Positions 20,674 to 21,128 are shown, counted from the stretch's first letter. The stretch: DNA of 64,000 nt from an uncultured Bdellovibrionales bacterium (GCA_964510575.1 CAZECN010000005.1:18518-82517), one strand, 5' to 3'. Numbers and translations are program-made. The notes: a model not told the origin generated them from the sequence alone.

Positions 20674-20676
20674 ATA

Positions 20677-20732
20677 TATACTGCGCCTCATTGAAATTTC
20701 GGTTTTGCTGGATTAAGCATAGGCGCAGTATA
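20677..20732. repeat. TATAC-hairpin short unit, TIR TATACTGCGCC/GGCGCAGTATA
   Basis: Perfect 11-bp inverted termini (20677-20687 and 20722-20732). The loop contains AAATTTCGG. It starts 4 nt after the chaperone stop codon. Confidence 0.8.
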
Positions 20733-20761
20733 AGCCGAGCGCATGCGAGGCCAAAGAACCA

Positions 20762-20983
20762 TATACTCAACCTCAAAAAATGCTTTTCAAGACCTTTAGG
20801 TCTTGTCTAAATTAATTATTAATCCGGAAAATCGAGGTATTTGGAGACTCTAGAGGCAAAACGCTGGTCGCGTTTTACAGATTCCCCGGCGCAGTATCTG
20901 TCCTCTGGCCATGCTAACGCATGGCGGATATACTCAACCCGACATGATCAAAAAAGGCCGAAATTTAAAGTAGGTTGAGTATA
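20762..20983. repeat. TATAC-hairpin long form (222 bp), TIR TATACTCAACC/GGTTGAGTATA, with embedded short unit 20929-20983
   Basis: TATACTCAACC occurs at 20762 and again at 20929; its complement is at 20973-20983. Three internal hairpins: CAAGACC-TTTA-GGTCTTG (20788-20805), AAAACGC-TGGTC-GCGTTTT (20858-20876) and GCCATGC-TAAC-GCATGGC (20908-20925). Confidence 0.8.
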
Positions 20984-21037
20984 TACCCCGTCTATTTTAA
21001 ATTCTGGCTTTTTCTGTGCCTGTAGTAAAGGGGTATA
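20982..21037. repeat. TATAC-hairpin short unit, TIR TATACCCC/GGGGTATA
   Basis: 8-bp inverted termini. Together with the following CAGTGC-GTA-GCACTG hairpin and the next TIR, 88 of 100 aligned positions match the reverse complement of 40281-40380 (manual alignment). Confidence 0.8.
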
Positions 21038-21066
21038 AACAGTGCGTAGCACTGCCAGACAACAGG

Positions 21067-21124
21067 TATACTGAAACCTCATTTAAGCTATAGCCAAACA
21101 CGATATTTAAGGTGGTTTCAGTAT
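21067..21124. repeat. TATAC-hairpin short unit, TIR TATACTGAAACC/GGTTTCAGTAT
   Basis: Inverted termini of 11-12 bp. The unit is about 90% identical by hand count to the reverse complement of 40074-40132. It ends 4 nt from the stop of the convergent 110-aa gene. Confidence 0.8.
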
Positions 21125-21128
21125 CTAT

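What the first reader, a model, noticed from the sequence alone, without database searches (positions are those of the whole stretch)
20674..21128. Convergent intergenic gap completely tiled by nested TATAC-initiated hairpin elements with four different stem sequences
Seen: from 4 nt after the chaperone stop to 4 nt before the convergent gene's stop, the DNA consists of abutting palindromic units. Each starts with TATAC and ends with GTATA, but the arm sequences differ: TATACTGCGCC (20677-20732), TATACTCAACC (20929-20983, plus a second opening arm at 20762 giving a 222-bp long form), TATACCCC (20982-21037) and TATACTGAAACC (21067-21124). The loops share a T/A-rich core around AAATTTCGG / TAAATTCTGG / AAATATCG. 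An extra GGCGCAGTAT arm sits at 20888-20897 inside the long form. Arms that differ between units yet always remain complementary indicate selection on the hairpin (DNA or RNA) rather than on one fixed sequence. Inference: a REP/BIME-like or Correia/MITE-like family (TA-flanked termini), or a family of structured 3'-UTR/terminator RNAs. I do not recognise it as a described element.
Basis: seen in the sequence. Interest (0 to 1): 0.6.

Follow-up and report, generated by a model that had tools for sequence, protein, structure and literature searches.

The report
Modular hairpin MITE-like repeat family
The gap between two converging genes consists entirely of two back-to-back copies of an undescribed small, non-coding, probably mobile DNA repeat built from hairpin modules; related bacteria have almost no spacer at this junction, so this is a new variant of a familiar kind of genomic parasite, with an unusual cross-wise pairing design.

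Summary
Four 55-59 nt TATAC...GTATA hairpins with four different, perfectly complementary arm sequences fill 20677-21124. They are not independent units. They are the end modules of two composite elements: a 307-bp full form (20677-20983) and a 143-bp internally deleted form (20982-21124), which share one TA. A third element (306 bp) fills a second convergent gap at 40074-40379. The full form is two-fold symmetric: end hairpin, short GC hairpin, linker, 136-bp core, then the mirror image. All stems covary. The same architecture occurs at unrelated loci in two other MAGs. In syntenic DNA of a close relative (86-88% protein identity) both junctions are empty (4-nt gene overlap; 17-nt gap), so the elements were inserted. 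Flanks fit a TA target with TA duplication. There is no Rfam hit, no terminator, no conserved promoter, and no transposase in 79 kb. One feature is unexplained: the two outer ends of an element carry different arms, and each arm matches an internal arm in the opposite half (19 of 22 cases). The resulting 12-bp long-range helix is better conserved than the local hairpin stem. Verdict: an undescribed MITE/BIME-like mobile repeat family, a new variant of a known kind, of moderate interest.

The parts
20677..20732 (+). End hairpin H1 (unit A, arm TGCGCC); left end of composite 1
   Evidence: 12-bp perfect stem (I10); z -4.9; covariance-model hit of 75.7 bits
20733..20761 (+). Junction module J: short GC hairpin hp2 (GCCGAGC-GCAT-GCGAGGC, 20734-20751) plus linker CAAAGAACCA
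   Evidence: Aligned with the same module in 27 half-elements; fold
20762..20897 (.). 136-bp core K. It runs from inner arm TATAC-TCAACC (which matches the far right end) to distal arm GGCGCA-GTAT (which matches the far left end). It contains hairpins H3 at 20788-20805 and 20858-20876.
   Evidence: (I8, I9, I17, D8, D11)
20898..20928 (-). Mirror junction module: linker plus hp2 (GCCATGC-TAAC-GCATGGC, 20908-20925)
20929..20983 (-). End hairpin H1 (unit B, arm TCAACC); right end of composite 1
   Evidence: (I5)
20982..21037 (+). End hairpin H1 (unit C, arm CCCGTC); left end of composite 2. It shares TA 20982-20983 with composite 1.
   Evidence: junction sequence GTA-TA-TAC
21038..21066 (+). Junction module J of composite 2 (hp2 CAGTGC-GTA-GCACTG at 21040-21054, then linker CCAGACAACAGG)
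   Evidence: 89% identical to 40295-40323 read on the reverse strand
21067..21124 (-). End hairpin H1 (unit D, arm TGAAACC; terminus degenerate, GTAT-C). Composite 2 (143 bp) is a full element with its core deleted between two direct TATAC-TGAAACC arms.
   Evidence: 20981-21079 matches 40380-40282 and 21066-21129 matches 40133-40068, with the shared 14 nt (arm TATACTGAAACC) as the deletion junction. Also.
40074..40379 (.). Third element, a 306-bp full composite. H1 (E, arm TGAAACC) 40074-40132 (+); J 40133-40162; core K 40163-40294 (inner arm TATATCTCGTC 40163-40173, H3 40188-40200 and 40253-40269, distal arm GGTTTCAGTATA 40283-40294); J 40295-40323; H1 (F, arm CCCGTC) 40324-40379 (-). It fills the second convergent gap (stops at 40072 and 40381).
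   Evidence: 84% identical to L030 3481-3786; empty site in relatives

Best explanation
The gap is occupied by two copies, and a second gap at 40 kb by a third copy, of an undescribed family of small non-coding transposable repeats of MITE type. They were inserted into convergent gene junctions that originally had almost no spacer.

Shown:
- The inserted unit is the whole ~306-bp composite, bounded by TATAC...GTATA. Its order is end hairpin H1, GC hairpin hp2, linker, 136-bp core K, then the mirror image.
- It occurs at unrelated loci in several genomes.
- It is absent from the orthologous junctions of relatives.
- Abutting copies share one TA.
- Internally deleted and chimeric derivatives exist.

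Inferred:
- It is moved in trans by a transposase encoded elsewhere. That enzyme would recognise the blocks conserved at both ends (TATAC at the tip and TTTAAATTTCGG at positions 16-27). It would insert at a TA in an AT-rich context and duplicate that TA, as IS630/Tc1-mariner-type elements do.
- The 5-7 variable bases between the two conserved blocks are not read by protein. They are kept complementary to two partners, one 33 nt away and one about 200 nt away, because some step uses a folded single strand. That step could be a single-stranded transposition or repair intermediate, or a read-through transcript.

At this locus the elements probably have no dedicated host function. They sit here because a TA-rich spacer between two stop codons tolerates insertions.
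For: - Copies and specificity. The covariance model finds 6 H1 units in the window at two loci and about 30 more in MAGs CALKYB01 and CALIEE01. It finds none among the 65 loci with a chance pattern match from the metagenome and viral scans, nor in 139 kb of other control DNA.
- Common architecture across 27 half-elements.
- Insertion. In the BBAY59 relative (proteins 86% and 88% identical, fully syntenic) the acyltransferase and its convergent neighbour overlap by 4 nt, and the 110-aa gene and the TPR chaperone are 17 nt apart. A 57%-identity relative has a 31-nt gap.
- TA target. Window flanks at 40 kb read GAATAG-A-[TA-TAC...GTA-TA]-A-CTATTC. Removing the element and one TA leaves a 4-nt spacer with a central TA.
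- GTA-TA-TAC junctions between abutting elements: window 20982/3, L028, L016, L014.
- Presence or absence at an orthologous convergent pair in L007 versus L045.
- Contexts are convergent, divergent and tandem.
- No ORF, no Rfam family and no terminator.
- The deletion derivative C-D arose between direct arms.
Against: - No transposase of any kind in the 64-kb window, in 15 kb of extra scaffold, or as a shared gene among 20 element-bearing loci.
- No autonomous element with these ends was found.
- The empty sites come from a different species, so the TA duplication is reconstructed, not read directly. A 2-nt duplication cannot be separated from a terminal TATAC/GTATA palindrome.
- Copies of one subfamily within a genome are only 84-89% identical, so there is no sign of recent bursts.
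- The two outer 12-nt ends of one element pair with each other less well than shuffled controls do. This is not what a classical TIR element shows.
Confidence: 0.6

Rival explanations
1. REP/BIME- or REPIN-like elements. The hairpins are recognised as folded single-stranded DNA by a single-copy HUH tyrosine transposase (RAYT or IS200/IS605 type) and copied without target duplication. The TA flanks would then be part of the recognised or cleaved sequence.
For: - Hairpins with strong compensatory change, in alternating orientation, separated by conserved linkers in a mosaic, as in BIMEs and REPINs (REPIN definition in PMC3337134).
- Each strand is predicted to fold into a long-range helix plus a 3'-terminal hairpin.
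- Copies are old and diverged (84-89%), as in vertically persisting REPIN populations.
- The 12-bp guide-like complementarity between an end and an internal site recalls the DNA-DNA guide pairing of IS200/IS605 (from my knowledge of that family).
Against: - No conserved GTAG/GTGG head; the hairpin is AT-rich at its foot and 55-59 nt long.
- No Y1_Tnp/RAYT gene in 79 kb or in the loci fetched.
- The perfect two-fold symmetry and the shared TA at junctions fit a double-strand cut-and-paste enzyme more simply.
Confidence: 0.2
2. Host-selected cis-acting RNA structures: 3'-UTR stabilisers, terminators, or insulators between convergent transcripts.
For: In the window both clusters lie in convergent gaps and start 1-4 nt from the stop codons. 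The structures are very stable (z -7.4 and -4.0 for whole composites). MITEs and REPs are known to be co-opted in this way (Correia/RNase III and ERIC/RNase E, PMC10969869).
Against: - The orthologous junctions in three relatives' contigs lack the elements.
- No T-run follows any hairpin, and there are 0 terminator-like sites.
- In other genomes the elements lie in divergent and tandem gaps, 25-470 nt from genes.
- Only 2 of 7 convergent junctions in the window carry them.
Confidence: 0.07
3. Substrates of site-specific or homologous recombination, acting as an invertible or deletable DNA switch. The repeated TATAC-arm 12-mers, in direct and inverted order, would be the crossover sites.
For: - Each arm type occurs three times per element in a fixed direct/inverted order.
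- The 143-bp form is a deletion exactly between two direct arms.
- Strain contig L002 switches from 0 differences over 145 nt to 29 over 166 nt in the core centre, and has a different right flank.
- Chimeric hairpins exist.
- Correia elements are reported to invert (PMC10969869).
Against: No recombinase gene nearby (Pfam calls above). Arms differ between elements, so one protein could not read them all. The L002 pattern could be an assembly chimera formed through the repeat.
Confidence: 0.05
4. Small RNA or antisense RNA genes transcribed from promoters inside the element.
For: An 11/12 match to a sigma-70 promoter (TTGACA-16-TAGAAT) lies at 40255-40228(-) in the core. TTGGCC-16-TATACT sites face outward in region 1. 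Coxiella QMITEs give rise to sRNAs (PMC5896051).
Against: These hexamers are not conserved at the same positions in other copies (inspection). The number of promoter-like sites does not exceed shuffles. There is no terminator.
Confidence: 0.04

Closest known systems
Correia / NEMIS elements of Neisseria (MITE)
   Same: Small (100-200 bp class), non-coding and multi-copy, with two-fold symmetric ends. Insertion at TA with TA duplication is from my own knowledge of Correia, not tested here. Often next to gene ends. Internally deleted size variants exist. The ends fold when transcribed, and promoter-like hexamers are created at the ends (PMC10969869).
   Different: No sequence similarity. Correia has one fixed 26-bp TIR, whereas here the two ends carry different 5-7 nt arms inside conserved blocks. 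Each end here is itself a 56-nt hairpin followed by two more covarying hairpins. The crossed internal arms have no counterpart. No conserved IHF site or promoter was seen.
BIMEs / REPINs (REP sequences with RAYT transposases)
   Same: Mosaics of imperfect palindromes in alternating orientation, joined by conserved linker motifs. Extragenic. Stems are maintained by compensatory change. The doublet is the replicative unit (PMC3337134, PMC3116915).
   Different: No GTAG head. The hairpins are longer, with a large asymmetric loop carrying a conserved AT-rich motif. TA flanks are present. The two halves do not pair with each other into one long hairpin. No RAYT was found.
Coxiella burnetii QMITE2
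   Same: A MITE whose core is a palindromic hairpin. It exists in full-size and small versions, lies mainly at the 3' ends of ORFs and in intergenic DNA, and sometimes overlaps stop regions by a few bp. It is conserved between strains (PMC5896051).
   Different: QMITE2 carries a GTAG REP and 7-11 nt variable direct repeats, and it is a target of IS1111. None of these applies here.
Integron attC sites
   Same: Sites of 55-140 nt in which only short terminal boxes are conserved and the arms between them vary freely while staying complementary. They are recognised as folded single strands (from my own knowledge).
   Different: The terminal boxes differ (RYYYAAC/GTTRRRY versus TATAC/GTATA). There are no cassette ORFs and no integrase. 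Units come in inverted pairs inside a fixed composite.

Membership tests
MITE (non-autonomous class II element; definition as in PMC11602168) | Size 50-800 bp and no transposase gene inside | tested here: met
   Elements of 306-307 bp and 143 bp. No ORF of 60 aa or more lies inside them. No conserved small ORF is seen across the aligned copies.
MITE (non-autonomous class II element; definition as in PMC11602168) | Terminal inverted repeats of at least 10-15 bp | tested here: inconclusive
   Both ends carry TATAC-N5-C-N4-TTAAATTTCGG in inverted orientation, about 18 of 28 positions shared. However, the outermost 12 nt of the two ends pair in only 66.7% of cells, below the shuffled mean. Perfect 12-bp inverted repeats do exist, but between an outer end and an internal site.
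MITE (non-autonomous class II element; definition as in PMC11602168) | Target-site duplication of 2-10 bp | tested here: inconclusive
   All intact copies are flanked TA...TA. Abutting copies share one TA. The reconstructed empty site A-TA-A matches the tight junction of relatives. No same-species empty allele was found.
MITE (non-autonomous class II element; definition as in PMC11602168) | Multiple dispersed copies, with presence/absence between genomes | tested here: met
   Three elements at two loci in the window; at least 15 loci in two MAGs; empty orthologous sites (L007 versus L045).
MITE (non-autonomous class II element; definition as in PMC11602168) | A cognate autonomous IS with the same ends | not testable with these tools
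   None in 79 kb of the host scaffold or in the fetched loci.
REP / BIME / REPIN | Short GC-rich imperfect palindrome with a conserved 5' GTAG/GTGG head | tested here: not met
   The head is TATAC, the foot of the stem is AT-rich, and the unit is 55-59 nt with a 30-nt loop.
REP / BIME / REPIN | Associated RAYT (Y1 transposase) gene, typically flanked by REPs | tested here: inconclusive
   No PF01797-type hit among 54 window ORFs. The 157-aa genes next to elements in L011 and L014 are pilin-like. The rest of the genome was not seen.
REP / BIME / REPIN | Palindromic units in alternating orientation, joined by conserved linker motifs | tested here: met
   Orientation +/- in every composite, with conserved hp2 and linker GCCAnnAGACAG.
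Intrinsic (Rho-independent) terminator | GC-rich hairpin followed by a T-run | tested here: not met
   0 terminator-like sites on either strand in both regions.
Any Rfam RNA family | Covariance-model score at or above the gathering threshold | tested here: not met
   Only a tRNA-Pro in the window. In E-value mode the best hits are 23 bits against a 100-bit threshold, to miRNA models.

The most novel reading that the evidence does not exclude
The arms are not passive. The element would then be a structure-guided mobile DNA whose ends are defined by nucleic-acid pairing rather than by a fixed protein-read TIR. By the two-fold symmetry, every strand carries a 5' end that closes a 221-nt domain through a perfect, freely reprogrammable 12-bp long-range helix. 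Every strand also carries a 3' end that folds into a terminal hairpin ending exactly at the element boundary. This geometry suits a single-stranded intermediate that self-primes its second strand or presents both cleavage sites in duplex form. That would be a transposition chemistry not described for MITEs.
Probability: 0.1. Interest if true: 0.8.

Novelty: new variant of a known kind. Interest (0 to 1): 0.5.

Why it matters
- It adds a well-defined, structurally unusual family to the small catalogue of bacterial MITE/REP-like repeats, from an uncultured lineage that is probably Bdellovibrionota.
- It gives a clean natural example of such an element splitting two genes that overlap in relatives, and of both genes ending slightly early at the element boundary.
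- The crossed-arm rule covaries across at least four arm types and is better conserved than the local hairpin stem. It is a concrete, testable clue that a folded single strand takes part in the life cycle of the element.
- For annotation, these repeats break assemblies and may mediate rearrangements. Contigs end in them, and one strain contig switches partner in the core.

Tried and rejected
- **Rfam.** Gathering mode on the whole window and E-value mode on both regions gave nothing.
- **Terminators and promoters.** No terminators. Promoter-like sites do not exceed shuffles and are not positionally conserved.
- **Metagenome scan.** A two-gap end-module pattern gave 21 hits, none passing the covariance model.
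- **Viral scan.** 44 pattern hits, none real.
- **Plasmid blastn** of both regions: no match.
- **Same-species empty alleles.** Searched through three flanking proteins. All contigs were identical to the window except L002, whose right flank is unrelated.
- **Candidate transposases that were not.** The L031 ORF next to an H1-like hairpin is a FixC-type oxidoreductase. The paralogous 157-aa genes next to elements are pilin-like. The L043 ORF between two ends is transaldolase, and the second 'end' is a 26-nt remnant.
- **All 54 window ORFs in Pfam:** no transposase, integrase or RAYT.
- **Literature.** Searching for the sequence strings and sample accessions found nothing relevant.
- **G.T versus A.C asymmetry** as a test of which strand folds: too few independent events to decide.
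- **Host taxonomy.** Only indirect hints, from names of homologues at 45-61% identity.

Full report
**1. Observation**

The sequence is as described. Four units of 55-59 nt begin with TATAC and end with GTATA; the last ends GTAT-C. Their arms are TGCGCC, TCAACC, CCCGTC and TGAAACC, and each arm is complementary to its own closing arm. The extra arms at 20762 and 20888 are present.

The pattern TATAC-N35-60-GTATA occurs 7 times in the window against 0.39 expected. Two of the seven (51972-52084) lie inside an ORF, have non-complementary arms and are chance hits. Each unit folds better than its shuffles. The flanking ORFs stop at 20673 (+) and 21129 (-).

**2. One family, oriented**

Aligning the six units in the window shows one conserved, asymmetric plan: TATAC, 5-7 variable bases, C, N3-4, TTTAAATTTCGG, a variable loop, the complementary arm, GTATA. 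The six units are four at 20.7 kb and two at 40074-40132 and 40324-40379. The loop motif gives each unit an orientation: A+, B-, C+, D-, E+, F-.

A covariance model built from the six finds only these in the 64-kb window, even with filters off.

**3. Distribution and controls**

A pattern scan of one genome per species gave 42 loci. The model accepts about 30 units in them.
- Nearly all lie in two MAGs of uncultured bacteria, CALKYB01 and CALIEE01.
- A weaker, hairpin-only form occurs in a Gastranaerophilales MAG (three identical copies at contig ends) and in a Caenarcanum MAG.

The model accepts none of the following:
- 21 loci with pattern hits from metagenome contigs;
- 44 loci with pattern hits from viral contigs;
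- 57 kb fetched with two window proteins: overlapping stretches of the host scaffold (about 15 kb of it outside the window) and contigs of the same species from other samples;
- 82 kb from relatives.

The model therefore separates real units from chance pattern matches.

**4. Architecture**

In the MAG loci, units come as a (+) copy followed about 250 bp later by a (-) copy. This is also the spacing of A..B (307 bp) and E..F (306 bp). Printing and aligning 27 half-elements gives a fixed plan for each 150-nt half:
- H1, the 56-nt hairpin;
- hp2, a short GC hairpin of form xxxxGC-GNNA-GCxxxx;
- a linker, GCCAnnAGACAGn;
- a second TATAC-arm;
- the motif (T)CAAATATGSTG;
- hairpin H3, for example GAAGC-GCA-GCTTC, CAAGAGC-GAA-GCTCTTG or CAAGTCC-GCA-GGACTTG;
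- GCAAGAAAA.

Two halves face each other across a short non-symmetric centre. I call the outer part (H1 + hp2 + linker) the end module, and the 136 bp between the two inner TATAC/GTATA sites the core K.

About five arm types recur: TGCGCC, TCAACC, CCCGTC/CCCGCC, TGAAACC and CCATCC. The hp2 stem goes with the arm type.

Composite 2 of the finding (C..D, 143 bp) equals the E..F type element with its core removed exactly between two direct TATAC-TGAAACC arms. Window 20981-21079 matches 40380-40282 and window 21066-21129 matches 40133-40068, and the two matches share 14 nt that contain the arm TATACTGAAACC.

The 455-nt gap is thus one full element plus one deleted element. They overlap by the TA at 20982-20983.

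**5. Structure is conserved, sequence is not**

On the model-based alignment of 36 distinct H1 units:
- 88% of cells pair, against 74% after shuffling;
- stem positions 6-10 carry 10-18 double-sided changes each;
- no shuffle out of 500 reaches the observed covariation;
- slid controls pair at 21-56%.

The hp2 and H3 stems also differ by type while staying complementary. One example is a clean compensatory pair between L007 and L008: CCGGGCGC/GCGTCCGG versus CCGGGGGC/GCCTCCGG. A few chimeric H1 units with non-pairing arms exist (L014, L026, L011), as expected from recombination between copies.

**6. The crossed-arm rule (unexplained)**

The inner arm of the left half is not the arm of the left end. 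It is the arm of the right end, and vice versa.
- In 11 full composites, 19 of 22 inner arms match the far end with at most one mismatch.
- None of the 22 matches its own side.
- Permutation gives a mean of 4.5 and a maximum of 13 matches; 0 of 20,000 permutations reach 19.

I then aligned the six 12-nt arm segments and counted pairs for three alternative pairings:

| Pairing | Cells paired | Double-change cells | Shuffle control |
|---|---|---|---|
| Long-range crossed | 92.4% | 45 | 0 of 500 shuffles reach it |
| Local hairpin | 88.3% | 40 | 0 of 500 shuffles reach it |
| Ordinary TIR (outer end with outer end, core end with core end) | 66.7% | 5 | below the shuffled mean of 76.3% |

The distal partner is the better complement. 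For example, TATACTGCGCCT pairs 12 of 12 with the distal AGGCGCAGTATA, whereas the proximal arm pairs for 10 bp and then has an A.C mismatch.

Whole-composite folding picks the long-range helix from the 5' end plus a 3'-terminal H1 hairpin (z -7.4 and -4.0). By symmetry the same holds for the other strand.

The exceptions are L011 and L043, which combine halves of two subfamilies, and a chimeric H1 in L014.

**7. Insertion, shown by empty sites**

Other samples of the same species are identical at both loci. Homologue searches found a close relative in JGI sample BBAY59, with the acyltransferase 86% identical and the sigma factor 88% identical and the gene order fully syntenic.

*Region 2 (40 kb).* In BBAY59 the acyltransferase and its convergent neighbour overlap by 4 nt (CTAA). 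A 57%-identity relative has 31 nt there. The window flanks read GAA TAG A [TA TAC...GTA TA] A CTA TTC. Removing the element and one TA leaves a 4-nt spacer with a central TA. Both window proteins end 2-3 residues earlier than their BBAY59 orthologues.

*Region 1 (20.7 kb).* In BBAY59 the 110-aa gene and the TPR chaperone are 17 nt apart. In the window the residual flanks are ATA-TA-TAT.

Further support:
- An orthologous convergent pair carries an element in CALIEE01 (L007) but not in CALKYB01 (L045).
- Abutting elements elsewhere also share one TA (L028, L016, L014).

This fits insertion at TA with TA duplication, but the duplication is reconstructed across species, not read from alleles.

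**8. Context and age**

In the window both clusters are in convergent gaps, which is 2 of the 7 convergent junctions. In the MAG loci the contexts are divergent (L030, L009), tandem (L008, L027, L022) and convergent (L007). The convergent position is therefore not a rule.

Copies of one subfamily within a MAG are 84-89% identical. The window E..F element is 84% identical to one in CALIEE01 (L030) at an unrelated locus.

A 97%-identity strain contig (L002) differs from the window as follows:
- 1 difference in 740 coding bases;
- none in the left half of the element;
- 29 in the 166 nt of the right half, followed by an unrelated right flank.

This is either recombination with another copy in the core or an assembly chimera formed through the repeat.

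**9. What it is not**

- No Rfam family.
- No terminator-like site, and promoter-like sites at chance level. One strong site (TTGACA-16-TAGAAT, 40255-40228, minus strand) is not conserved in other copies.
- No match in plasmids.
- No transposase, integrase or RAYT among all 54 window ORFs.
- Candidate neighbours in other loci are an oxidoreductase, pilin-like proteins and a transaldolase.

The window encodes a Tad pilus, an injectisome-type T3SS, LPS-core genes and metH. Named homologues point weakly to Bdellovibrionota.

**10. Interpretation**

The best reading is a non-autonomous transposable repeat of MITE type that moves as the whole composite and inserts at TA (confidence 0.6).
- Shown: the common architecture, dispersal, insertion relative to relatives, TA flanks and shared TAs, derivatives formed by deletion and recombination, and compensatory evolution of all stems.
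- Inferred: the enzyme, recognition of the conserved TATAC and TTTAAATTTCGG blocks, TA duplication, and the role of a folded single strand.

The main rival is a REP/BIME/REPIN-like element moved by an HUH enzyme on single-stranded hairpins (0.2). A host RNA function (0.07), a recombination switch (0.05) and sRNA genes (0.04) are less likely.

**11. Comparison with known families**

It works like Correia/NEMIS, BIME/REPIN and Coxiella QMITE2 elements (PMC10969869, PMC3337134, PMC5896051).

It fails the REP head test. It meets the MITE criteria of size, non-coding nature, dispersal and insertion. It meets the TIR criterion only in an unusual way: conserved blocks are interrupted by a variable block that differs between the two ends of one element.

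I found no description of it, either by sequence-string search or in the MITE literature I could reach.

**12. Verdict**

This is a real, undescribed repeat family and a new variant of a known kind. At this locus it is most likely selfish DNA sitting in a tolerated spot. The crossed, covarying long-range arms are the one feature that could point to something mechanistically new.

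Noticed in passing
window 40070-40072 and 40381-40383; L122 11899-11902: Two convergent genes that overlap by 4 nt in a close relative are split by the 306-bp element in the window. 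Both then end in a TAG placed 1 nt from the element boundary, 2-3 codons earlier than in the relative. The flanks GAATAG(A/T)TATAC are themselves inverted repeats, so the element may supply or shape the new stop codons.
   Followed up: partly
L017 35-106, L031 4172-4235, L036 35-107 (JANQGS01, Gastranaerophilales MAG); L019 2231-2287 (Caenarcanum MAG): H1-like hairpins occur alone, without the hp2 or core modules: TATACTGCTCC-AAATTAAATTTCGG...GGAGCAGTATA and a close variant. In JANQGS01 there are three identical copies at contig ends. The 56-nt hairpin may therefore be the basic unit, with a wider host range than the composite.
   Followed up: partly
L002 815-1150 versus window 20819-20990: A strain contig is identical to the window through the gene and the left half of the element. 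It then diverges by 17% in the right half and continues into unrelated DNA, lacking composite 2. This is either recombination between element copies or an assembly chimera formed through the repeat.
   Followed up: partly
L011 745-1218 (-) and L014 1096-1569 (+): Paralogous 157-aa type IV pilin-like genes (N-terminal methylation motif, 35% identical) each lie directly downstream of an element in MAG CALKYB01.
   Followed up: no
window 1807-20673: A Tad/Flp pilus cluster (CpaB, CpaF, TadB, TadC) is followed by an injectisome-type T3SS cluster: SctV, a Ser/Thr kinase with HEAT repeats, two FHA/SctD-like proteins, SctJ, SctQ, SctRSTU and a TPR chaperone. A FliA-like sigma factor is convergent at 21455-22333. 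Named homologues suggest a Bdellovibrionota host.
   Followed up: partly
hp2 of TGCGCC-type end modules, e.g. window 20734-20751; L028, L037, L045: The stem GCCGAGC/GCGAGGC keeps a tandem G.A/A.G mismatch in all copies of this type. The other types have fully Watson-Crick hp2 stems.
   Followed up: no
window 40228-40255 (-): A near-consensus sigma-70 promoter (TTGACA-16-TAGAAT) lies inside the element core, pointing towards the 204-aa gene's 3' end. It is not conserved in other copies.
   Followed up: partly
L043 1700-1725: A solitary 26-nt end fragment (CCGAAATTTATGGCGGTTTCAGTATA) is wedged between the transaldolase stop and the next gene's start. It looks like a decayed or truncated copy.
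   Followed up: no
window 23861-25546 (+) and 25524-26306 (-): This convergent gene pair overlaps by 23 nt. Together with gaps of 53-58 nt at two other convergent junctions (36902/36956 and 51601/51660), it shows that this genome normally packs convergent genes tightly, which makes the two element-filled gaps stand out.
   Followed up: no
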